From a virus (lineage: Duplodnaviria > Caudoviricetes), in the IMG/VR virus record IMGVR_UViG_3300001848_000569, positions 1 through 53,369 of that record: a DNA stretch of 53,369 bases; one strand, 5' to 3'. The position numbers and the translations under genes were made by a program. Below are positions 19,605-35,309 of the stretch, piece after piece. Every line of letters begins with the position of its first letter. Positions within the stretch are counted from its first letter, which is position 1. The notes below the pieces were generated by a model that ran no database searches, was not told the origin of the DNA, and worked only from the letters and a program-made list of their open reading frames with translations.

Positions 19605-19619
19605 TTTATTTTTATTTAG

Positions 19620-19691
19620 AGCCTATAGATAGAATCGAACTACCAAATGAGGTTTACAAAACCCCTGTTTTACCATTAGAACTATATAGGC
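19620..19691 (-). tRNA. tRNA-Thr(UGU)
   Basis: Acceptor GCCTATA/TATAGGC; anticodon arm GGGGT-TT TGT AA-ACCTC; T loop TTCGATT. Confidence 0.9.
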
Positions 19692-19699
19692 AAATTAAA

Positions 19700-19945
19700 T
19701 TATTTATTTTCTTTTAACCATAAACCTTTTGGACATTCAGATTCCATACTTCTTATTTTAGCTTCTATAATACATTTACAAATCTTACACTGTTTTACTT
19801 TCATTACTGAGTTTAGATTTTGGTAGCTTGGGCATCCTATACACAAATCCTTCCGTCTTTTGGCTACTATCTCTATCCTCATTTTTGGAATTAGGAGATT
19901 CCAATAACCTAGTATTATCTGATATATAAGTTTTAATATTCCCAC
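19700..19945 (-). CDS. Small zinc-binding protein
   Basis: CxxC...CxxCxC...K...CPKGLW. Confidence 0.65.
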   Translation of the reverse strand: MGILKLIYQIILGYWNLLIPKMRIEIVAKRRKDLCIGCPSYQNLNSVMKVKQCKICKCIIEAKIRSMESECPKGLWLKENK

Positions 19946-20279
19946 TTTTTAAATATTGATTTAGATATTTGTGATATAAATCCTTAACTCTTTTATATTG
20001 TTTTTCTGCAACCATTCTTTTAAATTCCCAAGGTGCATAATAATATTTCATTTTAATTAATTCTAAATACTTTTTCCAAAGTGTAAAAAAATTAATAGTC
20101 ATAGAACCAACCCCATGTATACGCATAGATGTGTACTGATTTTTACGGGCAGCCCTCGAAAGTTCATAAAAATATCGGGAATATATTTGTTCACAAGTTG
20201 TTTTAGGAAGATTGGACACTTCCTGCACTTTTGGTGTGAACATCCTCCAATTCTCTAGGATTGGTGGTTGTCTCTTCAT
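19785..20279 (-). CDS. HU/IHF-like DNA-binding protein (divergent)
   Basis: N-terminal helix-helix-strand pattern ending MRIHGVGSMTI, resembling the HU v.i.GFG.F motif. Confidence 0.45.
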   Translation of the reverse strand: MKRQPPILENWRMFTPKVQEVSNLPKTTCEQIYSRYFYELSRAARKNQYTSMRIHGVGSMTINFFTLWKKYLELIKMKYYYAPWEFKRMVAEKQYKRVKDLYHKYLNQYLKSGNIKTYISDNTRLLESPNSKNEDRDSSQKTEGFVYRMPKLPKSKLSNESKTV

Positions 20280-20637
20280 CTACTGTAATTCTAAATGTTA
20301 AGATATACTCTTTAATCTCTGATGAAATTGGAAGTTCAATATCTGGATTAATCCGATATTCTCCCTTACTATCTTGAATGAGTAATCTCTTATCTTTTAA
20401 TTTTTTCTTATAATTATTAAGGTTTGGTCTACTAATTCCAATTGACTTTTCCAATTTAAATAAATCCCAAACATACACATTATTTCTAATTGAACAAAGT
20501 ATCTTTAACTCTGTTTCTGATAAATCTAAACCTGATCCACATAATAATTTTTTAAGATAAAGCTTATATAAATTATTCTGTTTAACCTTTATTGGTAATT
20601 CTCTATTAATTGATTGATCTTCTCTTTTAACTAACAT
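20203..20637 (-). CDS. Winged-helix DNA-binding protein
   Basis: LSETELKIL...LEKSIGISRPNLNNYKKKLKDKRLL...GEYRINP. Confidence 0.7.
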   Translation of the reverse strand: MLVKREDQSINRELPIKVKQNNLYKLYLKKLLCGSGLDLSETELKILCSIRNNVYVWDLFKLEKSIGISRPNLNNYKKKLKDKRLLIQDSKGEYRINPDIELPISSEIKEYILTFRITVDEETTTNPRELEDVHTKSAGSVQSS

Positions 20638-20649
20638 AACTCTTTACTT

Positions 20650-20985
20650 TTATTTTCTACCTTTATATTCAAAACCTATTCTATTTATTTCCTTTTCTTT
20701 ACCATATACAATATCGGAGATTTTATTTTTAGAACCTTGAACTTTTAAAAATTCACCTTGTTCTATTTTAATTAAACAAGTATTTTTTTCTACTTTTAAA
20801 CTATTAGGGTTAATAAATTCTTTAATATATTCTATTTTGTATCTGGGTATATTTAGTTTACTTTTAATTACTTTTACCTTACTCTGTATTTTTGAATCCT
20901 GAGTCTGTTGAGTAGACTTCACGAATGTCTCTATTACTATCAGTTCTATAATATCCTCTTCGCTCCTTTTTATCTGCTTGATCAT
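20650..20985 (-). CDS. Hypothetical protein
   Basis: 111-aa ORF in operon. Confidence 0.55.
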   Translation of the reverse strand: MIKQIKRSEEDIIELIVIETFVKSTQQTQDSKIQSKVKVIKSKLNIPRYKIEYIKEFINPNSLKVEKNTCLIKIEQGEFLKVQGSKNKISDIVYGKEKEINRIGFEYKGRK

Positions 20986-21232
20986 TTTTTCTACGCTTTA
21001 AAGCTTCTAAAGCATTTTTACAATAATTAATAAACTCAGTATTGTAAAAATTATACCTCTTATTATTAAGAGTTTTCATTCTAGATATAAGAGTATATAA
21101 AACTTCTTCGGTTGTTATACCATCAAGGATTTTTCCAGTTTCATCCTTTTCTATAAATTTAAGTTCTTGACACTTAGTCTTGTCTAGATAATTTGTTAAT
21201 CTAAAATGAACTCCTTCTTTAATTACTTCCAT
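20879..21232 (-). CDS. Hypothetical phage protein (GITTEEVL helical-hairpin family)
   Basis: Q.LKF...DGITTEEVL..LISRM..LN motif. Confidence 0.55.
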   Translation of the reverse strand: MEVIKEGVHFRLTNYLDKTKCQELKFIEKDETGKILDGITTEEVLYTLISRMKTLNNKRYNFYNTEFINYCKNALEALKRRKNDQADKKERRGYYRTDSNRDIREVYSTDSGFKNTE

Positions 21233-21515
21233 TTACTTTAAAATAAATTATACCACCATTAATTGTTCTATATCTGTTCTTGTCTAATCCGTCACAATTG
21301 TATCTAAAATTTTTAATACCTAAATCATTTATTAAATTAGTTATTCTATTTAAAAAATTCTGTGAACAGTTTATAATAACCTCATTATTATTTTGAAGAA
21401 CTATTTTACCAAATGTTAAATCCATTAAATTATTTCTAAATTCCAATTCAGTAAATATATCTTCATTTAAATTTAAATCTTTTTGTTGTATCTCAAACTC
21501 TTCTACTTTATCCAT
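21219..21515 (-). CDS. Hypothetical protein
   Basis: ORF overlapping both neighbours. Confidence 0.5.
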   Translation of the reverse strand: MDKVEEFEIQQKDLNLNEDIFTELEFRNNLMDLTFGKIVLQNNNEVIINCSQNFLNRITNLINDLGIKNFRYNCDGLDKNRYRTINGGIIYFKVNGSN

Positions 21516-21894
21516 TGTCTATAATACTTTTTAAAATCTCATTAATATTATTAAAATCTTTTTGTGGTATACGAATTAAATTTATTTTCTTTTGAATACA
21601 ATAGTTATCCTTTACTTTATCCTTAGCTTGATATTTTTTAAACCTTTCTATTGTTCTATGCATCTTTCTTATAAATCTTTCATGTTGTTCACCATCTAAC
21701 TCTATTATAAGATTTAATTCAGGAATCCAGAAGTCAAATATAAGTTTTTGTTTTGTTAATGGGTTAATACAGTCTTTAAATCTAGCATTGTAAATGTAGT
21801 TTATTTCATGTTCTTTAAGCCATTTACTTACAGTTATTTCTATTTTACTTGGTGGGTTACTCTGAAAGTATGGCTTAGTTTTTTTCTTAGCCAT
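21508..21894 (-). CDS. Vsr/DUF559-like PD-(D/E)XK endonuclease
   Basis: SKIE...FDFWIPELNLIIELDGEQH...D..KD.YC....INLIRI. Confidence 0.85.
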   Translation of the reverse strand: MAKKKTKPYFQSNPPSKIEITVSKWLKEHEINYIYNARFKDCINPLTKQKLIFDFWIPELNLIIELDGEQHERFIRKMHRTIERFKKYQAKDKVKDNYCIQKKINLIRIPQKDFNNINEILKSIIDNG

Positions 21895-22109
21895 TAATTA
21901 TAATTAAGTCTAAAAATATTTTCATCTGGTTCCATTGCTTCAAATCCTTGAAGTAAAAGAAACTTTTCATTTTCATTTGTAGTAATCTCCTCAGCCCCCA
22001 CTATTGATTTTAAACACACCAAAGATTCATCTTTACTAGTTGATTCATATACTATCTCCATTTCTTCGGGCAATAAGGATAGGATATTTAATAATTCTTT
22101 TACTATCAT
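21894..22109 (-). CDS. Hypothetical protein, first gene of the minus-strand block
   Basis: MIVKELLNILSLLPEEMEI motif. Confidence 0.6.
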   Translation of the reverse strand: MIVKELLNILSLLPEEMEIVYESTSKDESLVCLKSIVGAEEITTNENEKFLLLQGFEAMEPDENIFRLNYN

Positions 22110-22689
22110 ATTATACAGTATTAAGTATTATTAAGTAATAGGAAATTTAAACCCCAGTAAACACTGGAGTTTTATTACCTTGGATTCCAATAAGACGAAG
22201 GATATAAGTTTATTCATTCTGTATGGTTCGGCCTATAATTTCATGGAATTACTTCTTTAGAAATTATCCTAACGTGGACCTCTACTTCGCCAGTTACCTT
22301 CCCTAAAGGGCTTTTATCTAAGGTGAGAGACCAGAACTATTCAACTTACTCACAACTGTAATCTAGTGAAGTCTTAAAAAAATTCCTCCTTTCAGATTGA
22401 AATTTAAGGCACTAGATCAGTGAGTTATCAACTTCAAGTGGTAAATATACGATAAATAAATGATATTAAAGTAAAAATCTTTTAATGGCCGTATAACTGC
22501 CTGATAATCAATATAAAAAATTTTTAAAAAATTTTTTTTTGATAACTATAATTTCATGGATGAGAACCTAGGTAGATTCATCCCCCTCCCTTTGCTTTGG
22601 CTTTGGGGTATATCCCACACCTCAAAGTTGCCAAAACGCGTTTGGTTGATAAGTTGGGATAAATCATTTTACTCACAAAATTCAATACA

Positions 22690-23145
22690 ATGAATCAAAA
22701 TCACAAGGTTCGCGTGGTGAAGAATGCCAAGAATGGCCAAATCATCACCCAAACGGCCAACCCGGAATTTGGCTTTTTTCTGTTGGAGCAATCCACACGG
22801 GATAAATTCAGCAATTTCCTCAATGGTCAGCGTGTCACTAAGGTGATGGTTGCACCAATGGAAGAGCTGAAAAAGATGGGCCTGAAGGAAGGAATGGAGT
22901 TTCCCGGAAATCTGTTCGTCACGGAAAGTCATGAGCCGATCAATTCGACCAGTCAGGTGAAGATCTATCCTGCAAATCATCCCAAAGCAGGTCAGCCTGT
23001 TCTGAGTAGTGGTAAGCAGATATATCGTACCATTGGTTGGGATACAGCTGGAACAACTGAGAATACTCTGTTGCCCACTGATCGGGTGGTTGCTCCTGCA
23101 AAGCCTGAAGTAAAGGCAACTGCTGGTGTTACAGCCGGTAAATAA
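22690..23145 (+). CDS. First plus-strand gene; GC-rich, beta-rich protein
   Basis: 151 aa; A-rich translation start; followed by a strong terminator. Confidence 0.75.
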   Translation: MNQNHKVRVVKNAKNGQIITQTANPEFGFFLLEQSTRDKFSNFLNGQRVTKVMVAPMEELKKMGLKEGMEFPGNLFVTESHEPINSTSQVKIYPANHPKAGQPVLSSGKQIYRTIGWDTAGTTENTLLPTDRVVAPAKPEVKATAGVTAGK

Positions 23146-23158
23146 GTGATCCAAAAAG

Positions 23159-23188
23159 AAAGGGGTTAGAGCAATCTGACCCCTTTTT
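23159..23188 (+). terminator. Intrinsic terminator
   Basis: AAAGGGGTTAGA-GCAA-TCTGACCCCTTT followed by T run. Confidence 0.85.
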
Positions 23189-24004
23189 AATTTACCCACT
23201 TTATACAACTATTATTCTATTATTCACCCTATTAACCTTAATAATCCCTATTCTTATAAGCCACCACTAATATCTGAAGGGTGCTAACTGGTATAAAGAG
23301 TAAGAGTAAGTCGTAATTCTTATAGCTTTAGGGCATAAGTAGAAATCTCTGAGTCAGTTCTTATAAGAATTTTTAACTACTTCACGCCGCCTAAAGCGGC
23401 GAATATGTACTATAGCTGGTTGTACTATTGCTGGCTTTTATTCTTTTTATACCTATTTTGCATTATAAGGCTCAATAACCTGGGTATAGAAGGTTAATAT
23501 TAACGGCCTAACGGCCTTTGTTATTAAGCTACCACTAAACTAAGTACACTGGAACCCAGTGGTAACCTTTGTAATCCTGACGGATTAATCATTTCTATAT
23601 ACCTAGTAATGGGTAATAATGTAAGTTGCCTGACGGTATAACAACTTATTTAATAATAAGTTCCTCTTTATACAACTATTTTTTAAAAACTATTGATTAT
23701 CAATGATTATTTTGTATTAAACTTTCAAAAATAATTGAAAGATGATTAAAAAGTTATTAGAATTTTGTTAAAGATTTTACATAACTTGTTGATAATCAAT
23801 CATTTTTCACTTAACATAACATTCAACTTTAACAAAATTTGTTTTTTTAACGGCGGTTTTATTTCATTTACAGCCATTTTATTTTTGTCCATTTCCAAAC
23901 AACTCTTATACGGTCCTTCTCAAAGAGTCTAAACAAATGAGAAAATCAGCCTGTAAACAATCAGGTGTGGTGCGTGGTAGCTCAAACCAAAAAACTAATC
24001 AATC

Positions 24005-24328
24005 ATGGATCCCAAAAAAAATCCCAACTATCAGAGGATCAACGTAGATCAACTGTTGGCCAAGTCTGATAAGATCAGCAATGCAGCCATTCGTTCAGCC
24101 ATCTCCAAGATGGAAGAAGAGAAGCAAAAGCTTCAGGAAGAAAAGCTTCTCGAACGCATTGGAGAGATACAAGCACATACTGCCAGTAAGCTGAATCATC
24201 TCCGCTTTGTACGTGAAGAAGAAAAGAAAGCAAAGAAGCAACTTCAGGTCTTTGCAGCTGCCGAACAACTATTCTATGAAACAGCAGATTTCGATCAGTA
24301 CAAAGAGTACATTGTCAAAAACCTCTAA
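24005..24328 (+). CDS. Coiled-coil early protein
   Basis: 107 aa, E/K/Q-rich, GC-richer codons. Confidence 0.7.
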   Translation: MDPKKNPNYQRINVDQLLAKSDKISNAAIRSAISKMEEEKQKLQEEKLLERIGEIQAHTASKLNHLRFVREEEKKAKKQLQVFAAAEQLFYETADFDQYKEYIVKNL

Positions 24329-24334
24329 AGAGGG

Positions 24335-24540
24335 AGTGGATTAGGCCACTATAAAGGGATAACAATCCCAGTAAAAATATATGGGTTAGAGTGAATTAAC
24401 ACTTGTAAGAGGCTTAGCTTCAATCTATATTGTCTGAAAAGGTAAAATGTGGTGTAAACTGTAACTACTTATACATAAGCACATTTCAGACTTTTACTAG
24501 CTATTTAAGCCTAATGCGTTCAAGTTTACTTGAGGTATAG
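24335..24540 (+). ncRNA. Pistol self-cleaving ribozyme with 142-nt insertion in J1/2
   Basis: P1 AGTGG/CCACT; loop ATTAGG pairs with CCTAAT (24510-15); ATAAA...TAG; P2 CTAT/ATAG; TTAAG; GCGT; P3 TCAAG/CTTGA; GG^T site. Confidence 0.8.
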
Positions 24541-24718
24541 ATGATAATTTAGATATAGAAACGAAAGCTATTCAAAGAGCTTGACTCAACGAATATAAGA
24601 AGAATTAACTTCTTAGTTCACCCCCTAATAAAATCTCTGAAGTAGAGATTAAAAAGGCTTCAAATTTTGAAGAGAGGGAACTTGTTTTCAATCAAACCTT
24701 CATGGTAAAAAATCATTT

Positions 24719-24762
24719 ACAGTAGAGTTTCTATGGAAACATAGTTTTATCTACTGTTTTTT
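24719..24762 (+). terminator. Probable intrinsic terminator
   Basis: ACAGTAGA...CTATG-GAAA-CATAG...TCTACTGT plus T run. Confidence 0.6.
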
Positions 24763-24806
24763 AAAAATAACATATCTTATCATAATCAATATAAAACAGT
24801 CAACTT

Positions 24807-25016
24807 ATGGAATTCTCATACACTAAAACTGCCTACGGCACAAACAGACTTACTATTCAAAGACAGGAGATAACCAATCCCAATACAATAGTAGCATTAA
24901 ACGCTTTTTGTATTTGGGGAGGTGCTGATAAAGTGGATTCAAGGGAGATGAGTTGGGAATTTGAAGAATCTATAATCTTTGACATTATTAATCGAGCTTT
25001 AACAAGACTTGATTAA
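24807..25016 (+). CDS. Hypothetical protein
   Basis: 69-aa ORF with A-rich leader. Confidence 0.55.
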   Translation: MEFSYTKTAYGTNRLTIQRQEITNPNTIVALNAFCIWGGADKVDSREMSWEFEESIIFDIINRALTRLD

Positions 25017-25057
25017 ATGTTACTATTTAAGCTAGTTTATGAACAGCCACAATATAC

Positions 25058-26050
25058 GTATAAAAATAGAGCATATTAATATAGGTAATATTTTTTGGTA
25101 TATTGATTTAGTAACCAGATAATTTTTATCATGGTGAACATAAGAGGTGAGATGCCTTATAATGGAAAACTAATATTTACTTTTAATAGTAAATATAGTT
25201 AGTGGGGAGGGATTCCCATTTAGATCGGTGGTTTTCATGTTTCAGCCAGAAAAACATGATGTTAAAAGTACCTATAACGGGATACTAGTATTGACGCGGC
25301 ACTTAAATGTTGACTGCCTCTATACAGTGGTGTGCAAAGCCCGTTTTTATACAAATTAAGATGTGACCTTTTATAAGATTGGTCATTATGTATATATAGT
25401 AAACAAAAACTTTAGGAAGGGCGGCCAACCAAGTTCTAGGAAGAGTGTTATCTAGATACCTAAAGATCCATTTCTCACAATGGAAAACACGACTGCATAC
25501 ATAAAACCTTAGTGAGACAAGGTTTTAGCTCAGGTAAACCTCTGAGTTTTTTATAATATTTTAAGTGGTAATATAATATCGTTAAATAGGGTTCGAGTCC
25601 AAGTGAGAACACTTAATAAAATAAAAATTTAGTGCCAATTTATTAGTCGTTTAACGACTGGGGTATTCTGGTAAGATATCATACAAAGGGTAATAACCTT
25701 AACTAAATTTTTAATTAACTAAGTAATTGTTTTAACGGGGGTTGAAAGTTCTAATGGGTCCAGTGATCCGCTAAATTATAGCTAGTGAGGGGTAAATTTT
25801 AGTAAATTTTACTAGAGGATGTACTATATCGAAAGATATACAAGCTTAGTTACTTAGTTAATTTTTTTAAAATCTGCGTTATTTGATACTTGAGCAAGTA
25901 TAAAACAATAGAAGTCCAATAGATTTTTGGGTACACACTTCTATAAACATATAGGGTTAAAGTGACATCAGTAATATAGCGTACTAAAAGCAGTAGAGTT
26001 AAATCTATAAGGAGACATCGTTATATGAAAGTCCACTTTTAATATGTTTA
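25058..26050 (+). ncRNA. Tandem structured ncRNA modules (unassigned)
   Basis: About 1 kb without an ORF; at least seven abutting units, each closed by a terminal inverted repeat. Confidence 0.55.
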
Positions 26051-26069
26051 TTTTAAACAATTTTGTAAT

Positions 26070-26276
26070 ATGGAACTAAAGCGAGATAATAAAGGTAATT
26101 TTTATAAAATAGAGAAAATATATACTTCTGTTTTAAATACTACTCTTATTTCAAAAGAAGAATATCTTACTATATTAGAAAAAAAATTATTTTTATTACT
26201 AAAATACAAAAAAGAGTTAGGATCTTTTTGTAATATTAAAGAACTACAAAAAGAAATTAAATCTTTAAAGAACTAA
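26070..26276 (+). CDS. Hypothetical protein
   Basis: 68-aa ORF. Confidence 0.5.
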   Translation: MELKRDNKGNFYKIEKIYTSVLNTTLISKEEYLTILEKKLFLLLKYKKELGSFCNIKELQKEIKSLKN

Positions 26277-26710
26277 ATTTATCAATTTTAAAATAAAGGC
26301 TAAACATTGATCCTTTGTGAATTATTATGATAGCCCAGAGCATGAATGGCATATAAATATTAAGGAGGGTTTCCATACTTAACGATGCAATAATTCACAT
26401 AAAGATACTAATCCTGAATTGACAGGTTATTAATTTGATATCTACTGAAGTAATCACACTACAATTGCATAGTGGAAGAGATTGTTAATTAATATGGAGT
26501 AATCCTAGACTTGTTGTTCCCTTGAGAAAGGAATGAAACATAACAAATCCGACACCCTACAATGGAAGCAAAGCCTTGAAGGAGATGGACTCACAACAAG
26601 AATGTGTTCTCAGCTTGACCCTACTCTTATCTATCAGTGCTTGCACGGTACGTTTAAGACAAGAGGGTGCTAATAAACTAAACTTTAAACTTAAAATTAA
26701 AAAACTACAA

Positions 26711-27058
26711 ATGGATTTCAAACTAATTTTCGTAATTGTCATTGTAGCTTTCAGTGGTTTTCTCATTGTAAAATGTGGAAATGACATGAAAGTTGAGCAC
26801 GTAACTAATTGTAAAGTTATTCATTTACAACAACAGCAAATTATTTCTGGTCAAAATAATAATTTAAGTACTAAAATTCGTTACTTAGTTATTACTAATA
26901 AAGAAACTTTTGTTTGTGAATCTTCCTTGATTAATAATAAATTCGATAATTCAGATATTTTCTTTCGATTAAAGGAGGGAGAAACATATAATTTTAAGGT
27001 ATGTGGATGGGGTAAATCAGTTTTAACTGATTATCGTAATATAATCCAAATTGAATAA
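26711..27058 (+). CDS. Membrane-anchored OB-fold-like phage protein (start reassigned from 26576)
   Basis: MDFKLIFVIV TM helix; YLVITNKETF...LKEGETYNFKVCGW...YRNII. Confidence 0.65.
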   Translation: MDFKLIFVIVIVAFSGFLIVKCGNDMKVEHVTNCKVIHLQQQQIISGQNNNLSTKIRYLVITNKETFVCESSLINNKFDNSDIFFRLKEGETYNFKVCGWGKSVLTDYRNIIQIE

Positions 27059-27177
27059 AATAAACTATAAATATAGAATATCAATGGTGGTATGTTATGG
27101 TAACGTAACAGAAACTAGAGTGAACTGGTCTAAATCACTTTAGGAGAATTGTTAAAGGGTCTATATTTATAGTAAAT

Positions 27178-27249
27178 AGCGGGATAGCGCAGTGGTAGAG
27201 CAGAAGTTTCATAAGCTTCAGGTCGGAGGTTCAATTCCTTCTCCCGCAA
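27178..27249 (+). tRNA. tRNA-Met(CAU)
   Basis: Cloverleaf; GAAGT-TT CAT AA-GCTTC; A1:A72 mismatch. Confidence 0.85.
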
Positions 27250-27398
27250 CTAGTAAGAAAAGTTTATTATTTATACGAATAATATTAAAACAATGTGAGT
27301 ACTTCATAATTTCAACTCTTAATTAATATGAGAAGTGGAGAGGTAGCTGAATTAACAGTAGCGAAGCTTTGTACTTTTCTTATTTTAAAAATCAAAAC

Positions 27399-27698
27399 AT
27401 GGAAACACAAAAGCATCGTTCTGTTTTAGAACTATTACAATTAATGTTAGATAATAAGATTCTTTTTGAAAGTTGATTATGTTCATGGGTATATAGATTA
27501 TTTCATAAAAGACTTATTTCAGTTGAAGAATTTAATTGTTTATTTACTTATATACAGTTAAATAGACCATCAAAGTATTCTTCTTTTGGAGCTTATATTT
27601 GCAAGGAAAGATCATATTATTGGAATCTGGGTAATATTAAGCCAAGAATTAAATGGATAAAGAAACATATTAAAAAATTAAAAGAACAAACAAAATGA
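27399..27698 (+). pseudogene. 100-codon frame interrupted by in-frame TGA (27474-76)
   Basis: METQKHRSVLELLQLML...FES*LCSWV...YYWNLGNIKPRIKWIKKHI; frame continues past the TGA. Confidence 0.6.
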
Positions 27699-27952
27699 GA
27701 GAACAACATTTCCCCATTTCTATCCCTTTTATGGATACAATGTTACCTATAATGCTTCCTTCTTCACCAATTTTTCCTCCTAAACGTCACACTAAAATGA
27801 GTTACAGGACACAAAATAAGCTTGCTAAAAAACGTAAGCATTTTAAAAATCGTGAGAAGTAACAAAATATAACTTCTTTTAAATCCCTTTGGCTGTCTTT
27901 TAGATAGTATCCATTAAATTTGAAAGAAGTTTATTTTTTAATTAGAATAATT

Positions 27953-28396
27953 ATGAAAAAGAAATTATATTTAGACGATATAAGGATTCCAAAAGATGAA
28001 TCTTGGAAAGTAGTAAAAAGTTTTGAGAAATTTGTACAAGCTATCGAACAAGAATTTCCAGATATAATTTCGTTTGATCATGATCTTGGCAAATTTGCCA
28101 TGAACGATTATTATAAAAACCAATATAACGGGGTTGATAAAATTAATTATTCATATATTAATAAAAATGGTGAAATGACTGGTCTTGATTGTGCCAAATG
28201 GTTAATTGATTATTGCATGAATAAATCATTGTCATTACCAAAGTGTTATGTTCACTCAGCTAATCCAATTGGGTCTGATAATATTATGGGCTTATTGAAT
28301 AATTTTTTAAAGAAGGTTGAAAACAAAGAACCCAATGTTATTAGAACTTTCTGGGAATTAGATGACGAAAAAATGCAAAATAATCTTTTAAATTGA
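27953..28396 (+). CDS. Cyclic-phosphate-processing receiver-domain protein
   Basis: LYLDDIRIP...ISFDHDLG...TGLDCAKWL...VHSANPIG; ATG at 27953 preferred over TTG 27920. Confidence 0.8.
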   Translation: MKKKLYLDDIRIPKDESWKVVKSFEKFVQAIEQEFPDIISFDHDLGKFAMNDYYKNQYNGVDKINYSYINKNGEMTGLDCAKWLIDYCMNKSLSLPKCYVHSANPIGSDNIMGLLNNFLKKVENKEPNVIRTFWELDDEKMQNNLLN

Positions 28397-28403
28397 TTAT
28401 TAT

Positions 28404-28476
28404 ATAGGATTAGTTCAGTTGGTAGAACGCTTGCTTTGGGAGCAAGAGGTCGGTGGTTCAAGTCCACTATCCTATA
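28404..28476 (+). tRNA. tRNA-Pro(UGG)
   Basis: ATAGGAT/ATCCTAT; CTTGC-TT TGG GA-GCAAG; TTCAAGT. Confidence 0.92.
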
Positions 28477-28496
28477 CTTAAAATATTAGGTTTAAA

Positions 28497-28901
28497 ATGA
28501 AAAGTGTTTATAGAGTAGAACATAGTACTAAGAAGTGTCCGAAAAATAACAAAATTAACACTGGCCCTTATTATTATGCACAAGGATATAAGTCAATAAA
28601 AGATAAACGTATAATTTCGGATAAAGCCAATTATAGTTTAGAACATCCGGGACTTAGACAGGATTATGATATCGTTGTTATAATGTCGAAAAATATTAAA
28701 AATCCACTTTTTGCTTTTCCTTCTATTAATAAAGTCAATGAATGGTTTGATGAAGAATGCAAAAAAATCTTAAAAAGAAATAACTATATTTTAAGAAAAT
28801 ATTTTCTAAAAGATGAATCTATTGTATTATTAGGAGAAAGTAAAAAACAAGTAATATTTACAGAAGATTCTGTAATAAGAAAAAGAAAAATTAACTGGTA
28901 A
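28497..28901 (+). CDS. Conserved phage protein (YRVE...GPY...HP...F.S...WF family)
   Basis: Motif pattern in translation. Confidence 0.55.
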   Translation: MKSVYRVEHSTKKCPKNNKINTGPYYYAQGYKSIKDKRIISDKANYSLEHPGLRQDYDIVVIMSKNIKNPLFAFPSINKVNEWFDEECKKILKRNNYILRKYFLKDESIVLLGESKKQVIFTEDSVIRKRKINW

Positions 28902-28912
28902 AAAAATTAAAG

Positions 28913-29122
28913 ATGGTAACATTCTTAATAGTACTAATATATAATATTATTTATATACATAGTATATTTAACGGAAATATAAAAGATTATTTAAAAGGGT
29001 ATTATTTTAAATCTTCAATTACAACTAATAAAATTATGTATTGGAGATACGGATGGACACCTTTTATTTGGTTATATAATATTTGGGGTATAAGTAGTTT
29101 AATATACTTTATTTTTAAATAA
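28913..29122 (+). CDS. Small membrane protein
   Basis: Two hydrophobic segments. Confidence 0.45.
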   Translation: MVTFLIVLIYNIIYIHSIFNGNIKDYLKGYYFKSSITTNKIMYWRYGWTPFIWLYNIWGISSLIYFIFK

Positions 29123-29129
29123 AATACTT

Positions 29130-29502
29130 GGGCCATACAGGATTCGATAGTAATGATTAAGTAATTGGTTTATACATCGGTTTGGAATATCCCGATTAAT
29201 AAATAAGTTCTGAAAAATAGATGCTAACAATGTTAGACCTATGTTTGCTAAAAAGAAGGTAGCTACTACTTTCTATGCAAAGCGAGTATTGGCAGCTGCT
29301 TAAGTAATTAAGTAGTTCTTAGGAACAGAAAGCCAATAAATAGTTTACTAGTTCTATAAAAACTAGTTGGTGGAGTTTGCTCAATTTCAGGGCAGCCTTT
29401 TATTCTTTTGGAGAGTTAGTAAGATAAAACTCTATCCTAAGTATATAAATAAAACCAATTAATTAGCTTTGCTAGACCCCGGTTCAATTCCGGGATGGTC
29501 CA
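29130..29502 (+). ncRNA. ssrA: tmRNA
   Basis: GGGCCAT/ATGGTCC acceptor with G3:U wobble; GGATTCGA 5' motif; T arm CCCGG-TTCAATT-CCGGG; tag frame 29223-29303 ends LAAA-stop. Confidence 0.93.
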
Positions 29503-29517
29503 CACAAAATTTCTAAT

Positions 29518-30474
29518 ATGAAAAAATTAAATGAAAAATTTAAATTAGGAAAATACGAATGTAAAATTGTATTAGTTAATGATAAAATACCCCTTTTGGG
29601 ATATTTTTTAAGTGAAACTTCTTGGAGAATGTCTAATTGCCTTTTTATACAGTTTGATTTAACATCAGATGACTTGAAAAAAGTATTTCCTAATATAATA
29701 CTTGGAAGTTTTAACCATACTCCTCAATTTAAAACTTTGAAAGAAATTAATGAACTTATTGAGTATTTACAATTATTTGAATTAAAAGTAGGTGATAAAA
29801 TTCAAATGGGAATAAATTTAAAAAATCTGATAAATACAACTTGGTTTTTAAAACAAAAAGAAAAGCAATTAAGTATGAAAAAAGAAAAAAGAGTAATTAC
29901 TCCAGTACAAGCTCAATCTATTATTGATTCTGCTTGCCGTGATTGGAAAGAGAGACTTTGTCTTATATGGGCTGTTAATATTGTTTTGAAAAAGGATATA
30001 GAAATTGCTGAATCTTTTTATCAAGAAATGCGAGCTGCTTGTACCAAAGAACAAAACCTCTTGTTTGATAAAATTTTTGGAAAAGATGTTAAAGTAGGAG
30101 ATAAAGTAATAGTATTACCCGGATCTAGTTATTTTCACCAAAGAAAGATTGGTGGTATATATACTATTGGTTTTTTAGATAGCAACTATTGTCGATTAAC
30201 TAATGAACTTAATGAAATAGATGATAATGGATATATTGAACAAAAATATGTTCGTTTAGCTACTCAGGAAGATATAAATAATTATTGCCCTTATGAAGAT
30301 GGAGAACCCATTTGGGTTCTTGATTTTAATGGAACATGGCTATTCCGTTATTCAAATGGTAAAAGAATTGGTGGTTCAATTCAAACGTATCAAAATCAGA
30401 AAAAGAATGGAGATGGTGCAATTTGGGATAAACATATGAAATTTGATCCTGATAATTTACCAGTTAATGAATGA
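29518..30474 (+). CDS. Hypothetical multi-domain protein
   Basis: 318-aa ORF; LKVGDK and VKVGDKV SH3-like modules. Confidence 0.6.
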   Translation: MKKLNEKFKLGKYECKIVLVNDKIPLLGYFLSETSWRMSNCLFIQFDLTSDDLKKVFPNIILGSFNHTPQFKTLKEINELIEYLQLFELKVGDKIQMGINLKNLINTTWFLKQKEKQLSMKKEKRVITPVQAQSIIDSACRDWKERLCLIWAVNIVLKKDIEIAESFYQEMRAACTKEQNLLFDKIFGKDVKVGDKVIVLPGSSYFHQRKIGGIYTIGFLDSNYCRLTNELNEIDDNGYIEQKYVRLATQEDINNYCPYEDGEPIWVLDFNGTWLFRYSNGKRIGGSIQTYQNQKKNGDGAIWDKHMKFDPDNLPVNE

Positions 30475-30602
30475 TATTTAGTTCTTAATTACTAGTCTGA
30501 CGAACTATCTTATTACTGACTAGTCAAAGGGTAGGTGTGATAAAAACCTTGAACTTATTAGAGTTCTAGTAAGTGGTGAAACCTACATAAACTTGCATTT
30601 TT

Positions 30603-30676
30603 GGTCCCTTAGTTCAGTTGGTTAGAATAGTTGGCTTATATCCAAACGGTCCTAGGTTCAAGTCCTAGAGGGACTA
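30603..30676 (+). tRNA. tRNA-Ile(UAU)
   Basis: GGTCCCT/AGGGACT; TTGG-CT TAT AT-CCAA; TTCAAGT. Confidence 0.85.
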
Positions 30677-30711
30677 CATTAAATACTTTAATAATATTAA
30701 ACTAAAGTACA

Positions 30712-30918
30712 ATGAAAATAGAAAACACTTTAAGGAAAAAAGATGGAGAAGATAAAGAAAAATGCAAAAAGATAACCAAGAATCTTCGTAGAGATATTAA
30801 AAATATCTATAATAAATATAAAGACGTTGATATAGATTATGATATGTTTCATTTAATACTTCTCGATTATTCAAATATGGAAAGAGTAATGAGAATAACA
30901 TTGAATTACAAAAAGTAA
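30712..30918 (+). CDS. Hypothetical protein
   Basis: ORF track; co-directional early cluster. Confidence 0.5.
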   Translation: MKIENTLRKKDGEDKEKCKKITKNLRRDIKNIYNKYKDVDIDYDMFHLILLDYSNMERVMRITLNYKK

Positions 30919-30948
30919 AATATTGGTAAACAACTAAAAACAAAACAA

Positions 30949-31140
30949 ATGACAGTACTTACAGTATTTGGAAAAGACAAATCAGTTCGGGTTGTCCGTA
31001 TTCCCGGTAAAACAAATAATCACTTTAAAGGCGATGATAAAAGTAAAGATTATTTTACAGTTACTACATCAGAAGTAGATAAACTTGCAAAAGATCTTGA
31101 AGGACTTAATTATTTTAGTCATACATGGCAAAGTCATTAA
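30949..31140 (+). CDS. Hypothetical protein
   Basis: A-rich leader; 63 aa. Confidence 0.55.
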   Translation: MTVLTVFGKDKSVRVVRIPGKTNNHFKGDDKSKDYFTVTTSEVDKLAKDLEGLNYFSHTWQSH

Positions 31141-31448
31141 TATGGACTTTAACACACATTATCATTGGCTTAAAGAATGGGGAATTAATCCCATTTTAAT
31201 AGATGAGGATATTGTATTAGAATATAATGCAATAGAATCTTTTGAAAGTGTTTTTTATACTAAACAGTTAAGTGAAAATGTTATTTTACTTGCTAATGAA
31301 GAAACAAGTGATCTTATCCACTATAGATTCTCAGCCAATTGAACCTACTACAACTGATAATATATCTGGATAAATAATTTAATAGAGTTTTATACAATAT
31401 AATAAATTGATGTTAAAGAGTTTTAAAAAAATAATTAAAAAAATAAAG

Positions 31449-31793
31449 ATGAATCTTTTTTATAATAAAGTAATTAATTCACTTAGAGGTGATCAAAAGG
31501 AGCAAACCGCTGCTCGTAATGCTGAATTTGCTCAGGCTGCCCTTCAAACTAAGAAGCAGCAGTTTAATATGGATAAATTGAATGCTCAACAAGCATTGAA
31601 TCAAGCTAAGATTAAGCTTGAAAATGCTAAATACCCAACCAGCAATATTACTGATGTAAGTACTTATTGGAATAACATTTCAGCTTGTCAGAGTGCGGTA
31701 GAAATTGCACAAGAGGAAGTAAATACTGCACAAGCTAATATGGATTACGTAGATTCTCTTATTACTGAAATGTTTGCAGAGGTTACTGCGTAA
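31449..31793 (+). CDS. Coiled-coil protein (start reassigned from 31407)
   Basis: A/Q/N-rich helical sequence from MNLFYNKV. Confidence 0.65.
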   Translation: MNLFYNKVINSLRGDQKEQTAARNAEFAQAALQTKKQQFNMDKLNAQQALNQAKIKLENAKYPTSNITDVSTYWNNISACQSAVEIAQEEVNTAQANMDYVDSLITEMFAEVTA

Positions 31794-31874
31794 TTAAAAA
31801 AATTGTATAAAACTCTTTGTTTTAATGGGGATGAGATATTCTCCATTAATTCTTCACATTTAAATTAAACTAAA

Positions 31875-32099
31875 ATGATATCTAAAACTAAAAATGTTCG
31901 TTCCGTCTATCTTGACGAAAATAATAACTTACGTGTAGATTATACTTGTAAGAATAATAAAGAAGTTCGATCTCTTTCTTATACTTATATAAAAAGGATA
32001 AAAAGGATACCGCCAGCTTTACAAAGAGATATTGCGGGGTCTATTAGTAGTAAACATTGGTCACATTTAATCGGTGTTTTTCAAAAAATATTAAATTAA
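31875..32099 (+). CDS. Hypothetical protein
   Basis: ORF track. Confidence 0.5.
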   Translation: MISKTKNVRSVYLDENNNLRVDYTCKNNKEVRSLSYTYIKRIKRIPPALQRDIAGSISSKHWSHLIGVFQKILN

Positions 32100-32118
32100 T
32101 ATTTAAAAATCATTTATT

Positions 32119-32349
32119 ATGAAAGTAAAACATATTGACAAGCATTTAAATGTTACTGAGATAGATATCTCTTTAACCAAGCCACAACTACGTAGAGAGC
32201 AAAAACACGGTAAATTACAAAATATTTATACTGAAGCTCAATATCAAAGAGCTTTGTATCATCATAGATTTCTTAACCACTTAAAGGATCTAGTTAATGG
32301 TAAAAAGTATAAATATGTGCCAGTTCATATAAATAATAGTGTTCTATGA
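32119..32349 (+). CDS. Hypothetical protein
   Basis: ORF track; ATGA overlap with next gene. Confidence 0.55.
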   Translation: MKVKHIDKHLNVTEIDISLTKPQLRREQKHGKLQNIYTEAQYQRALYHHRFLNHLKDLVNGKKYKYVPVHINNSVL

Positions 32350-32582
32350 CAAAAAGAAACATTTTAAAGTGGCTATTATTTAAAATAGTACTGTCTTTAA
32401 TTTTCATATTGTGGGGAATAGTTGGTTGGAATAGTTATTCAATTGACATTACTAATTCAAATAATAGTTTAAGTATATTTATAGATACTTTAGCTATTGT
32501 AACTGGTGTAGTAAGTGTTATATTTTTAATAGCAAATTTAATAGTTGATATCTCACTATATAAAGAAATAGAAAATGAATGA
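32346..32582 (+). CDS. Two-TM membrane protein
   Basis: Two hydrophobic helices. Confidence 0.55.
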   Translation: MTKRNILKWLLFKIVLSLIFILWGIVGWNSYSIDITNSNNSLSIFIDTLAIVTGVVSVIFLIANLIVDISLYKEIENE

Positions 32583-32636
32583 TTGGTTTACTTTTAACCC
32601 TATTGATTATATAGGTGAAAAGATATGAATAATAAT

Positions 32637-32710
32637 CTTCCCGTAGCTCAGCTGGATAGAGCAAAGCCCTTCTAAGGCAGAGGTCGGGAGTTCAAATCTC
32701 TCCGGGAAGA
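32637..32710 (+). tRNA. tRNA-Arg(UCU)
   Basis: CTTCCCG/CGGGAAG; GCC-CT TCT AA-GGC (only 3 anticodon-stem pairs); TTCAAAT. Confidence 0.85.
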
Positions 32711-32724
32711 CTAAAATTTAAAAT

Positions 32725-32976
32725 ATGATTTATTTAATTCTATACTTTATTCTTACTATTATAACTTACATATTCATTAAAAGATATATAAGGGGTAATG
32801 ATTCTAATTTAGTTAAATGGGAAATATTTGATGGTAATTCTAACTGGGAAAATGTATTAATAACTTTAATATTTTCTTTATTATTTCCTGTATTTTGGAT
32901 TATCCAAGTAATTATTAAAATATGTATTTTTACAAATAAAATTTTAGATAAATATGATCCCCCTAAATGGCTTTAA
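32725..32976 (+). CDS. Two-TM membrane protein
   Basis: Hydrophobic helices; ends PPKWL. Confidence 0.55.
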   Translation: MIYLILYFILTIITYIFIKRYIRGNDSNLVKWEIFDGNSNWENVLITLIFSLLFPVFWIIQVIIKICIFTNKILDKYDPPKWL

Positions 32977-33047
32977 TCTATAAAAATTAAAAAAATGAAA
33001 CATAATTTTCCTGGTTTAAATACTAAAGTACTAGATAAATTTACATT

Positions 33048-33302
33048 ATGAGTGTTGAAGAGTTTAACAATAAGTACAAAGATTATCTTGAAGATAGATA
33101 TTATGGCTTAGCTGTGGATATACCAGAATTTACAGAATGGTTAGATAATAAATTTCAAGAGTTTATTGAATATCCAGGCTTTAAGTATAGACAAATTAAG
33201 TCTAAGTTTAATTATGGGTGTTTTTACTGTACGGGTTTATCACAAGAACAAGTAATAGAAGTTCAAAATAAATTAACAAGTTATTTAAATCAAAAAACAT
33301 GA
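33048..33302 (+). CDS. Hypothetical phage protein (QIK.KF motif)
   Basis: ORF track. Confidence 0.6.
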   Translation: MSVEEFNNKYKDYLEDRYYGLAVDIPEFTEWLDNKFQEFIEYPGFKYRQIKSKFNYGCFYCTGLSQEQVIEVQNKLTSYLNQKT

Positions 33303-33466
33303 TGTGTGGTGTTATTTTATTAATTGTTTATTTAATAGGAATTCCAATTGCATGGGGACACCATCAAGTCCGAAAGGATTAGTTCAGAAAATGGATAGGC
33401 ATAATGCAGGTTCGATTCCTGCCATAACCACAAAAACATAAGTATTTAAAACAAAATCAGTCAGTT

Positions 33467-33730
33467 ATGATAATATTATCTGTAATATTAAGCATTATAA
33501 TTATATTTGGGTCTGCCATATTTTTTGCTAATGGTGCGGCTGCGCTTGTAATAGTAAAGAAAGAAAATCCCAATGTGCTATGGCCTTCTTGGGTATTAAT
33601 TACAGGAGGAATATGTATGCTACTACTTTTTTCTTTAGGTGTAATATTTTGGGTCGAGAAAATTGCAAATACTCCAGATGGTCCTAAATATGAAATTGTA
33701 ACTGAACAATTATATAGACAGGTTAATTAG
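33467..33730 (+). CDS. Two-TM membrane protein
   Basis: Hydrophobic helices. Confidence 0.55.
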   Translation: MIILSVILSIIIIFGSAIFFANGAAALVIVKKENPNVLWPSWVLITGGICMLLLFSLGVIFWVEKIANTPDGPKYEIVTEQLYRQVN

Positions 33731-33803
33731 TAAAAATGAATACACTAATTCGATTATTATTTCCTATTTGGTTTATGTTTGAAGACATTGGTAAAAATAA
33801 GCC

Positions 33804-34046
33804 ATGAAAGATAATTTACAAATATTAATTAAAAGGTTAGTTAAAATTGGCGTTAATATAGAAATTGTTAGCAATGTTCCTTGGGTATATCTATATTCTA
33901 TTAATGGTAAAAAAGTGACAGAAAAAACAGAAGATTCTAATCATGGTTTTAATATTGCTTGGATACCAATTAATCCTAATAAAGAATTGTATTTAACTAA
34001 TACTAAAGAACTATTTCAGTTAATACGAAAATATTTGAAATCATGA
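33804..34046 (+). CDS. Hypothetical phage protein
   Basis: NVPWVYL..INGKKVTE...NHGF motif. Confidence 0.6.
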   Translation: MKDNLQILIKRLVKIGVNIEIVSNVPWVYLYSINGKKVTEKTEDSNHGFNIAWIPINPNKELYLTNTKELFQLIRKYLKS

Positions 34047-34208
34047 ATATCATTAGAACTAGTCATTCAAAACGGTCCAACTTTTATTGGTTAGTTTGTG
34101 CATTAACCAAATTAGTAGATAGTTTAGTTATTTTATGTTCGTTAGGATTTCTATGGAGTGATCTGGAATTTAAGTTTAAAACATTTCATATTCTAAAGGT
34201 TCATAAAA

Positions 34209-34658
34209 ATGATAATAAATAATAATATTACAGAGGCTTATTGTTCTTTTGAAGTAAGTAAATTACTTAAAGAAAAGGGATTTGATATACCTTGTTTTTA
34301 TTACACTGGAAAACATAAGGGTGTGGTTGGATGGAAAGATGTGGAGAATATAGATACTACCTCAGATATATATGAAAATTTTCTTTCAAAAAACTCAGAA
34401 ATAGAAGAGTATTGTTCTTCTATACCAACTCATGCTTTAGCTATTGAGTGGATAAGAGTGAATTTTGGAACACAGTTTCATTTAATTCCTCACTGGATAA
34501 ATGGAATTTGTTATTATAGAATCGGCTGTACATTTATCAATTTTAAGAATGAAGTTGATATGTGGTTATCAAAAATAATTGATGAATTGGTAAATTATAC
34601 TTCTCCACAAGAAGCAACAGAAGCAGCACTTTTACATACACTTCAAAATTTAATCTAG
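34209..34658 (+). CDS. Hypothetical phage protein (SFEVSKLLKEKGF family)
   Basis: Motif; C-terminal YTSPQEATEAAL. Confidence 0.65.
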   Translation: MIINNNITEAYCSFEVSKLLKEKGFDIPCFYYTGKHKGVVGWKDVENIDTTSDIYENFLSKNSEIEEYCSSIPTHALAIEWIRVNFGTQFHLIPHWINGICYYRIGCTFINFKNEVDMWLSKIIDELVNYTSPQEATEAALLHTLQNLI

Positions 34659-35033: not shown

Positions 35034-35309
35034 TTACGAACTCATAAAACAACATGACGAGTCAACTGGCTTCTGTTCATTACAAAATCATCTTCTTTAC
35101 AACCTTCTTATAGAATAAAAATTATTGATAAAAAAGTATTTGAAATTTAATAATCTTAAAAAAGACTTAAAAATGATTAAATATAGTTATTCTTACTGTT
35201 GAAGGCGGCACACTGACAGGATAGAATGAAATGCGAAGAATAGTAGTAAGTAATTCTATTGCCAGCAAGCAAGGTTTGTAGAGTACCGTTAGTAAGAAAC
35301 TCTATATTT

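What the first reader, a model, noticed from the sequence alone, without database searches (positions are those of the whole stretch)
24335..24540. Pistol ribozyme split by a 142-nt structured insertion
Seen: every element of the pistol consensus in order: P1 AGUGG/CCACU, 6-bp pseudoknot AUUAGG/CCUAAU, AUAAA...UAG, P2 CUAU/AUAG, UUAAG, GCGU, P3, GG^U. Predicted cut is 24535/24536. The normally contiguous AAA-UAG junction is interrupted by 24356-24497, which folds on itself (GGGAU/AUCCC; AGUAAAA/UUUUACU enclosing GUCUGAAA/UUUCAGAC). P1 starts 7 nt after the stop of ORF 24005. Inference: standard covariance models would probably miss it, and the insert could be an allosteric, aptamer-like domain controlling cleavage of an early mRNA.
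Basis: partly seen in the sequence, partly recalled or inferred. Interest (0 to 1): 0.82.

Follow-up and report, generated by a model that had tools for sequence, protein, structure and literature searches.

The report
Pistol ribozyme interrupted by 142-nt insert
A freshwater crAss-like phage carries a textbook pistol self-cleaving ribozyme whose normally short single-stranded linker is interrupted by a 142-base self-folding insert, an arrangement found in no other pistol examined, and whether it still cuts is untested.

Summary
Every pistol element sits at the stated coordinates. These are P1 with its 6-nt loop, a 6/6 Watson-Crick pseudoknot, AUAAA, UAG, P2, UUAAG, GCGU, P3 and GG^U. Residues 24356-24497 separate AAA from UAG.

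- **Database models:** Rfam's Pistol model misses it at gathering score. It hits the two halves separately, at 26.5 and 16 bits against a cut-off of 34.5.
- **Insert removed in silico:** with the insert removed inside a script, a sequence profile of 33 natural pistols scores it 36.2 bits. Real pistols score 25.7-57.2.
- **Rarity:** none of 50 other aligned pistol matches has an extra base in this linker. Seven gapped-pattern scans of three public collections found no second split pistol.
- **Not an assembly artefact:** contigs from other studies carry the insert and none skips it.
- **Folding:** the insert folds on its own (z -2.8). It shows no predicted pairing with the core and does not change the computed cost of the active fold.

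Best reading: a true pistol by descent, probably still cleaving at 24535/24536, with a new peripheral domain in J1/2. An allosteric role has no support so far. An inactivated relic is the main rival. No diverged orthologue could be fetched, so activity and the insert's function remain open.

The parts
24005..24328 (+). Upstream protein gene (107 aa) whose 3' untranslated region carries the ribozyme
   Evidence: ORF. Homologues at 98%, 87% and 73% identity. Of the 10 population differences listed inside it, 8 fall on third codon positions (my arithmetic). No PHROG family matched.
24335..24350 (+). P1 hairpin: 5-bp stem AGUGG/CCACU with the 6-nt loop AUUAGG (24340-24345), which is the 5' strand of the pseudoknot
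   Evidence: Sequence. Rfam half-hit 24335-24356, 16 bits. Pair probability 0.92-0.99 and loop unpaired 0.98-0.99 in the 24300-24580 context.
24351..24355 (+). 5' part of linker J1/2: UAUAAA-type AUAAA, with the three adenines (24353-24355) equivalent to env25 A19-A21
   Evidence: 24 of 51 aligned pistol rows have ATAAATAG in this linker. PMC6101554 passages describe the A-minor role of A19-A21.
24356..24497 (+). 142-nt insert. It holds hairpin H0 24356-24369; a closing helix 24370-24376 with 24492-24498; a branched arm 24379-24430; and an arm closed by 24432-24439/24484-24491.
   Evidence: Folds: -32.2 kcal/mol, z -2.81, 3 of 200 shuffles fold as well. H0 pair probability 0.87-1.0 and closing helix 0.68-0.92. 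No copy elsewhere in the window or in the fetched loci. No match in the phages collection.
24498..24519 (+). 3' part of J1/2 (UAG), P2 5' strand CUAU, UUAAG, pseudoknot 3' strand CCUAAU, GCGU (G24516 = env25 G40, A24508 = A32, G24518 = G42)
   Evidence: Rfam alignment. Numbering taken from the env25 sequence and residue statements in PMC6101554 and PMC6154101.
24520..24540 (+). P3 hairpin (24520-24533), G24534, predicted scissile bond G24535^U24536, P2 3' strand AUAG 24537-24540
   Evidence: alignment places GGU on the model's GGU. P3 pair probability 0.90-0.99 in the local contexts.
24541..24762 (+). Structured non-coding tail ending in a terminator-like hairpin (24720-24756) followed by UUUUUU (24757-24762). 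It would be the 3' cleavage product.
   Evidence: Fold of 24536-24810: -57.1 kcal/mol, z -3.78, 0 of 200 shuffles fold as well. Hairpin and U-run read. The next ORF starts at 24807.

Best explanation
This is a genuine pistol self-cleaving ribozyme (by descent) in the 3' untranslated region of a small gene of a freshwater crAss-like phage. Its 7-8-nt single-stranded linker J1/2 has acquired a 142-nt domain that folds on its own.

Inferred mechanism:
1. P1 and its loop form first, just after the stop codon.
2. The insert folds into a hairpin plus a branched domain closed by a 7-bp A/U-rich helix. That helix brings A24355 and U24498 back together.
3. The loop AUUAGG pairs with CCUAAU across the insert, and P2 and P3 close.
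4. The RNA cuts itself between G24535 and U24536 by the usual pistol chemistry (the G40-equivalent G24516, the A32-equivalent A24508, hydrated Mg2+).
5. This separates the mRNA plus ribozyme (2',3'-cyclic phosphate end) from a ~227-nt structured tail with the terminator hairpin (5'-OH end).

I take the insert to be a peripheral or passenger domain, not a demonstrated sensor. What is shown: the sequence anatomy, family resemblance, rarity, presence in several samples and independent folding. What is inferred: that it still cleaves, the site of cleavage, and the consequence for the mRNA.
For: - **Core elements:** all are present without a defect.
- **Rfam:** both halves hit RF02679 separately, at 26.5 and 16 bits. 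Canonical pistols in fetched loci score 34.8-71.2 bits (13 hits in 8 loci).
- **Insert removed in silico:** with the insert removed inside a script, a profile HMM of 33 unique natural pistols gives 36.2 bits. The pistols themselves score 25.7-57.2 (median 43), the intact 206 nt scores 14.1 + 4.0, and 200 shuffles score at most -0.2.
- **Known functional residues:** those named in the literature passages read (A19-A21, A32, G33, G40, C41, G42, G53-U54) all have their equivalents.
- **Folding:** the insert folds alone (z -2.81). It does not pair with core residues at p>0.15 in the two local contexts. The cost of the pistol-competent secondary structure is 6.0 kcal/mol with the insert and 6.3 without, inside the range 3.5-10.9 of 21 natural pistols.
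- **Real DNA:** Logan contigs of two other DNA studies and one RNA-library run cover the junctions (X5 record 12 spans 24309-24509; X5 record 13 spans 24400-24550; X2 records 4-6; X8 record 23). No joint skips 24356-24497.
- **Population variation:** those contigs carry 2-4 differences in the insert and none in the core parts they cover. Of the 6 insert differences, 4 lie at unpaired positions and 2 keep their pair as a wobble.
Against: - No cleavage evidence exists. All laid runs are contigs, which cannot show RNA ends, and no RNA-library contig reaches 24535/24536.
- The linker is strictly short in other pistols. 0 of 50 other aligned matches have an inserted base, and 4 are shorter. The literature passage read calls it a conserved 7-nt single strand whose adenines dock in P1. 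An insertion there could therefore disturb the fold, and no 3D test was possible.
- A flawless core is also what a recent inactivating insertion would leave.
- The absence of core differences is weak. About 2 would be expected in 64 nt at the local rate, and 19 differences were not listed.
- The compatibility of the 6 insert differences with the fold is also weak (my rough estimate is about 0.08 by chance).
- No diverged orthologue was obtained, so there is no covariation test of the insert.
- In the long mRNA context, 24152-24160 is predicted to pair with 24513-24521 (p about 0.8) and P3 drops to 0.18-0.25.
Confidence: 0.5

Rival explanations
1. It is a pistol ribozyme inactivated by an insertion. 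A 142-nt piece of unknown origin landed in J1/2 and the RNA no longer cuts. The halves still look perfect because the event is young or because they drifted little.
For: No other pistol examined tolerates extra bases in J1/2: 0 of 50 aligned matches. Split-pistol pattern scans returned nothing in viral contigs (gaps 2-62, 63-123, 125-155, 157-217), metagenome contigs (125-155) or genome contigs (113-173, 2-62). J1/2 is described as conserved and docked in P1. Only one pistol is present in this half-genome, so its loss might be tolerated.
Against: The insert is not a recognisable mobile element. It has no second copy in the window or loci, no database match, and no intron-like ends (read). It is fixed in every contig that covers it, from samples of 2015 and 2025 in different studies and in two haplotypes. 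The core shows no listed change in the parts those contigs cover. The insert is closed by a helix that restores the proximity of the two halves.
Confidence: 0.32
2. It is an allosteric pistol. The insert is a sensor for a ligand, protein or temperature, and its folding state, for example the weak A/U-rich closing helix, gates assembly of the active core.
For: The insert is a sizeable, significantly structured, multi-branched domain placed where it controls the distance between the two halves. Its closing helix is only 7 bp with one G-C pair, and it uses the core's U24498. Well-defined helices carry 1 of the 6 population differences, while the loosely folded interior 24440-24483 carries 4.
Against: No known aptamer family matches. 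No alternative insert-core pairing is predicted. There is no energetic effect on the core fold. No conserved relatives exist to show a binding pocket. Natural ligand-gated self-cleaving ribozymes other than glmS are, to my recollection, essentially unknown.
Confidence: 0.12
3. It is a chance resemblance or an assembly chimera.
For: Only sub-threshold Rfam scores.
Against: The joint descriptor has 0 matches in 100 shuffles. The in-silico joined sequence scores 36.2 bits against at most -0.2 for 200 shuffles. Independent contigs from other studies span both junctions.
Confidence: 0.02

Closest known systems
Pistol self-cleaving ribozyme (Rfam RF02679; env25/env27 structures 5K7C, 5KTJ as cited in PMC6154101)
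   Same: P1 with a 6-nt loop, 6-bp pseudoknot, AAA in J1/2, 4-bp P2, UUAAG, GCGU, P3 and a GG^U junction of the conserved length. It also has the phage intergenic setting described in PMC4604425.
   Different: J1/2 is 149 nt instead of 7-8 nt. The Rfam gathering score is not reached (26.5 against 34.5). Cleavage is untested.
Canonical pistols in IMG/VR phage contigs (e.g. L025, L055, L095, L124)
   Same: Same order of elements and nearly the same letters. L025 even shares the pseudoknot pair AUUAGG/CCUAAU.
   Different: All have a contiguous linker. Several occur in multiple copies per contig and next to tRNA genes, whereas the window has one copy, after a protein gene.
Discontinuous hammerhead ribozymes in mammalian Clec2 3' UTRs and HDV-like ribozymes with long J1/2 or P4 inserts (recalled, no call)
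   Same: A small self-cleaving core whose parts are separated by a long insertion yet can still assemble. The hammerhead case is also located in a 3' UTR.
   Different: They belong to different ribozyme classes. In hammerheads the extra sequence replaces a stem loop, whereas here it interrupts a conserved single-stranded junction.
glmS ribozyme and engineered pistol aptazymes (recalled; engineered riboswitch papers seen only in the listings)
   Same: The idea of a self-cleaving core whose activity depends on an attached or integrated ligand-binding part.
   Different: No ligand, pocket or switching structure is evident here.

Membership tests
Pistol ribozyme (RF02679) | P1 hairpin whose 6-nt loop forms a 6-bp pseudoknot with the junction between P2 and P3 | tested here: met
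   AGUGG/CCACU stem. Loop AUUAGG and CCUAAU are complementary at 6 of 6 positions. This is the same geometry as in the census pistols.
Pistol ribozyme (RF02679) | Highly conserved nucleotides: AAA of J1/2, UUAAG-type internal loop with purine 32 and G33, G40-C41-G42-U | tested here: met
   All are present. They match the model's conserved letters in the alignment and the invariant columns.
Pistol ribozyme (RF02679) | Short single-stranded J1/2 (7 nt in env25) connecting P1 and P2 | tested here: not met
   142 extra nucleotides lie between AAA and UAG. 0 of 50 other aligned matches have any inserted base there.
Pistol ribozyme (RF02679) | P2 and P3 helices with a junction of strictly conserved length carrying the G^U cleavage site | tested here: met
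   CUAU/AUAG, UCAAG/CUUGA, and GGU between them. The conserved junction length is stated in PMC4604425 section 5.
Pistol ribozyme (RF02679) | Score at or above Rfam's gathering cut-off (34.5 bits) | tested here: not met
   No hit at gathering score. The halves score 26.5 and 16 bits. The test with the insert removed could only be done with a sequence-only profile (36.2 bits), not with the covariance model.
Pistol ribozyme (RF02679) | Mg2+-dependent site-specific self-cleavage | not testable with these tools
   Only assembled contigs were available for RNA libraries.
Known riboswitch or aptamer classes (Rfam 15) | Match of the insert to any curated aptamer model | tested here: not met
   A cmscan of 24250-24650 at E up to 10 returned only Pistol and a noise-level SNORA21 hit.
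Self-splicing introns (group I / II) | Family model match and characteristic boundary nucleotides | tested here: not met
   No Rfam intron hit. The boundaries AAA|GGG and UAC|UAG lack the usual U / terminal G or GUGYG / AY ends (read; the rules are recalled). No contig skips the insert.

The most novel reading that the evidence does not exclude
A natural, conditionally active pistol ribozyme. The 142-nt J1/2 domain would be a sensor, for a metabolite, a phage or host protein, or temperature, whose folding decides whether the two halves assemble. Self-cleavage of this phage transcript, and release of the structured 227-nt tail, would then be switched during infection. That would be a natural allosteric small self-cleaving ribozyme of a class for which none is known.
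Probability: 0.1. Interest if true: 0.85.

Novelty: new variant of a known kind. Interest (0 to 1): 0.55.

Why it matters
Pistol ribozymes are described as compact RNAs of about 50-70 nt with a conserved, docked J1/2 linker, and their biological role is unknown.

- **If it is active:** it would show that the fold tolerates a large domain at a position treated as invariant. It would explain why homology searches miss such forms, which suggests the class is under-counted. It would also give a natural scaffold position for engineering.
- **If the insert gates activity:** it would be a rare natural regulated self-cleaver and a handle on what pistols do in phages.
- **If it is dead:** it documents how these ribozymes are lost.

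Tried and rejected
**Relatives of the phage or region**
- No DNA match in the phages collection.
- The neighbouring 107-aa protein has no relative in viral contigs.
- TerL finds only relatives at 27-29% identity (L045-L047). Their records hold no pistol at E up to 1 (0 of 3, all fragments).
- The best cultured or named relatives are crAss-like phages at 36% TerL identity or less.
- The 87%-identical homologue P0002 exists only in sources whose contigs I could not fetch.

**Pattern searches**
- The 15-mer TTAAGCCTAATGCGT gave 42 stretches in viral contigs, only one of them a pistol (L025).
- Its 22-position form gave 2 chance matches in metagenome contigs.
- Split-pistol patterns with gaps of 2-217 nt found nothing in three collections. 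These patterns are strict: their contiguous form matches 25 sites in 24 of 166 fetched loci, fewer than half of the roughly 60 model hits. Variant split pistols would therefore be missed.

**Alignment and covariance model**
- MAFFT misplaced the insert, so that alignment was not used.
- My covariance model R1, built from 5 pistols, also finds only the 3' half in the window (30.9 bits), because local alignment skips P1 instead of paying for a 142-nt insertion. No score for the insert-removed sequence could be obtained from it either.

**RNA evidence**
- RNA-library contigs stop at 24280 and 24490 and resume at 24556. Contigs cannot show ends, so this is not evidence for or against cleavage.

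**Other ideas checked**
- Repeat or mobile-element origin of the insert: no copies found.
- Promoter-like and terminator-like matches inside the insert are weak consensus hits in a region where such hits are common, so I did not rely on them.
- A 9-nt complement between the ORF (24152-24160) and the catalytic strand (24513-24521) is predicted to pair in the long transcript. By my rough estimate it is within chance expectation (about 0.1).

**Tools and papers not available**
- Earlier findings of the scan were not open.
- Three papers were not held: the two crystal-structure papers and the discovery paper. Statements on 3D geometry rest on passages of PMC6101554 and PMC6154101.
- Supplementary files were not consulted.

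Full report
**What is there.**

- P1 AGUGG/CCACU (24335-24339/24346-24350) with loop AUUAGG (24340-24345)
- AUAAA (24351-24355)
- 142 nt of other sequence (24356-24497)
- UAG (24498-24500)
- P2 CUAU (24501-24504)
- UUAAG (24505-24509)
- CCUAAU (24510-24515), complementary to the loop at 6 of 6 positions
- GCGU (24516-24519)
- P3 UCAAG-UUUA-CUUGA (24520-24533)
- GGU (24534-24536)
- AUAG (24537-24540), closing P2

P1 begins 7 nt after the TAA stop (24326-24328) of ORF 24005-24328.

I mapped the element onto the env25 pistol, whose sequence and residue numbers are given in passages of PMC6101554 and PMC6154101. All the residues discussed there have equivalents:
- A19-A21 = 24353-24355
- A32 = 24508
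- G33 = 24509
- G40 = 24516
- C41 = 24517
- G42 = 24518
- G53^U54 = 24535^24536

The insert sits between A21 and U22.

**Is it more than chance?**

Rfam finds no Pistol at its gathering score in the window. With relaxed thresholds it hits the two halves separately: 24488-24540 at 26.5 bits and 24335-24356 at 16 bits. The cut-off is 34.5. Thirteen canonical pistols in eight fetched loci score 34.8-71.2 bits.

A descriptor that demands both halves 125-155 nt apart matches the window once and matches none of 100 shuffles.

I could not run Infernal on an altered sequence. Instead I built a sequence-only profile from 33 unique natural pistols and scored the insert-deleted sequence, which was computed inside the script:

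| Sequence scored | Bits |
|---|---|
| Insert-deleted window element | 36.2 |
| The 33 pistols themselves | 25.7-57.2 (median 43) |
| Intact 206 nt | 14.1 + 4.0 (two separate hits) |
| 200 shuffles | at most -0.2 |

The element is therefore a pistol by descent beyond reasonable doubt.

**How unusual is the insertion?**

In every case I could resolve, the pistols among them have a 5-bp P1, a 6-nt loop and (A/U)UAAA abutting UAG.

A covariance model built from five of them found 51 matches in 100 sources. It found 10 further matches in the remaining loci.

In the model-based alignment of the 51, the linker occupies exactly 8 columns. None of the 50 non-window rows has an inserted base there, and four have a shorter linker.

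Gapped patterns requiring both halves with 2-217 nt between them found nothing:
- Viral contigs:
- Metagenome contigs, 125-155 nt:
- Genome contigs, 113-173 and 2-62 nt:

The contiguous form of the same pattern matches 25 sites in 24 of the 166 fetched loci. The descriptor therefore recognises fewer than half of ordinary pistols, and the negative result is not exhaustive.

My searches of the held literature turned up no description of a pistol with an expanded J1/2 (listings and abstract openings; passages of PMC4604425, PMC6154101, PMC6101554 and PMC10085705). The discovery paper and both crystal-structure papers were not held, and supplements were not seen.

**Is the insert real DNA, and what is it?**

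Ten public runs from four studies hold the stretch or part of it. They are aquatic and freshwater metagenomes of 2015 and 2025, four of them RNA libraries.

I laid contigs of two DNA runs and two RNA-library runs. Contigs span both junctions:
- X5 record 12: 24309-24509
- X5 record 13: 24400-24550
- X2 records 4-6
- X8 record 23: 24275-24490

No joint skips 24356-24497. That excludes an assembly chimera, and no insert-free or spliced form turned up in the contigs laid.

Two haplotypes differ from the window inside the insert. One carries 24407, 24446, 24465 and 24483. The other carries 24427 and 24468. The records' difference counts leave none for the core parts they cover.

Of the six differences, four lie at unpaired positions of the predicted fold. 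Two keep their pair as a wobble. Four of the six fall in the loosely folded interior 24440-24483. These are weak signals. Nineteen differences were not listed, and only about two core differences would be expected anyway.

Other properties of the insert:
- It has no second copy in the window or in any fetched locus.
- It has no match in the phage collection.
- It has no Rfam match beyond noise.
- It has no intron-like boundaries.

Alone it folds to -32.2 kcal/mol (z -2.81; 3 of 200 shuffles fold as well). The fold comprises a 5-bp hairpin, a 7-bp A/U-rich closing helix that uses U24498, a branched arm and a long arm.

**Does it interfere with the core?**

In partition-function folds of 24335-24540 and 24300-24580:
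- P1 has pair probability 0.61-0.99.
- P3 has pair probability 0.90-0.99.
- The closing helix has pair probability 0.68-0.92.
- The pseudoknot loop stays unpaired: 0.69-0.72 in the minimal construct and 0.98-0.99 with flanks.
- No insert-core pair reaches p 0.15.

I then forced P1, P2 and P3 and kept the pseudoknot strands free:

| Construct | Cost (kcal/mol) |
|---|---|
| With the insert | 6.0 |
| Without the insert | 6.3 |
| 21 natural pistols | 3.5-10.9 |

In the nearest-neighbour picture the insert is therefore an independent module that neither helps nor hinders the core. This speaks against a simple alternative-pairing switch. It says nothing about 3D clashes or tertiary contacts.

The passage read in PMC6101554 says A19-A21 dock in the minor groove of P1 as A-minor triples within a conserved 7-nt single strand. 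So the insertion point is structurally sensitive, and this is the main reason for caution.

**Context.**

The window is a 53-kb IMG/VR record that CheckV estimates at 52% complete. It has a portal and large terminase of PHROG families 6547 and 6681. The terminase's best named relatives are crAss-like phages at 36% identity or less, followed by Flavobacterium and Cellulophaga phages. I read this as a freshwater crAss-like phage, probably of Bacteroidota.

The upstream ORF is a real gene. It has homologues at 98%, 87% and 73% identity, and 8 of its 10 listed population differences fall on third codon positions (my arithmetic).

Downstream, 24536-24810 is strongly structured (z -3.78; 0 of 200 shuffles fold as well). 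It ends in a terminator-like hairpin at 24720-24756 followed by six U. The next ORF starts at 24807.

Cleavage would thus separate the mRNA, with the ribozyme at its 3' end, from a tail of about 227 nt that carries the terminator hairpin. That could change mRNA stability or release a small structured RNA. This last step is inference.

**Verdict.**

- **Observation:** confirmed.
- **Interpretation:** partly supported. It is a pistol, it is split, and models miss it. The allosteric role and the 'early mRNA' label have no support yet.
- **Probabilities:**

| Reading | Probability |
|---|---|
| Cleavage-competent pistol with a peripheral J1/2 domain | about 0.5 |
| Inactivated relic | about 0.32 |
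| Insert gates activity | about 0.12 |
| Chance or artefact | about 0.02 |

- **Novelty:** a new variant of a known kind. It is a singleton apart from near-identical population variants. It is well worth a simple cleavage assay.

Noticed in passing
window 29130-29505: A phage-encoded tmRNA gene (Rfam 63.5 bits; ARAGORN gives a 26-residue tag peptide ending in AAA), among six tRNA genes at 19619-35391.
   Followed up: no
window 24536-24810: The non-coding tail after the ribozyme is strongly structured (z -3.78). It has several hairpins and a terminator-like hairpin plus U-run at 24720-24762. It might be a small RNA released by cleavage.
   Followed up: partly
window 24152-24160 and 24513-24521: A 9-nt stretch inside ORF 24005 is perfectly complementary to the pseudoknot/GCGU strand of the ribozyme. 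It is predicted to pair with it (p about 0.8) in the full transcript, which could mask the active site. By my rough estimate this is within chance expectation.
   Followed up: partly
window 23200-26500: A stretch of low coding density between the divergent arms of the genome. It holds only short ORFs (107, 69 and 68 aa) and more promoter-like and terminator-like matches than shuffles give.
   Followed up: no
window 22669-23208 (-) and 22690-23145 (+): Two long ORFs overlap almost completely on opposite strands. Neither matches a PHROG family, so which one is the gene is unclear.
   Followed up: no
L124 4195-8159; L103 1-460: Pistol ribozymes are interleaved with tRNA genes in phage tRNA arrays (five pistols and six tRNAs in L124). 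In places a pistol ends a few bases before a tRNA, which suggests a role in tRNA transcript processing.
   Followed up: partly
L086 963-1032, L123 1179-1252, L128 3266-3331: Pistol variants with a short P1 and almost no J1/2 (no AUAAA between P1 and UAG). The linker can therefore shrink in nature, although it was never seen to grow in this sample.
   Followed up: partly
L137 8288-8369: A skipping-rope RNA (RF02924, 76.7 bits) lies about 2 kb from a pistol in the same phage contig.
   Followed up: no
L056, L062, L075, L085, L094, L138, L145, L160: Many phage contigs carry two to four model matches within a few kilobases, not all of them strong, whereas the window has a single one.
   Followed up: no
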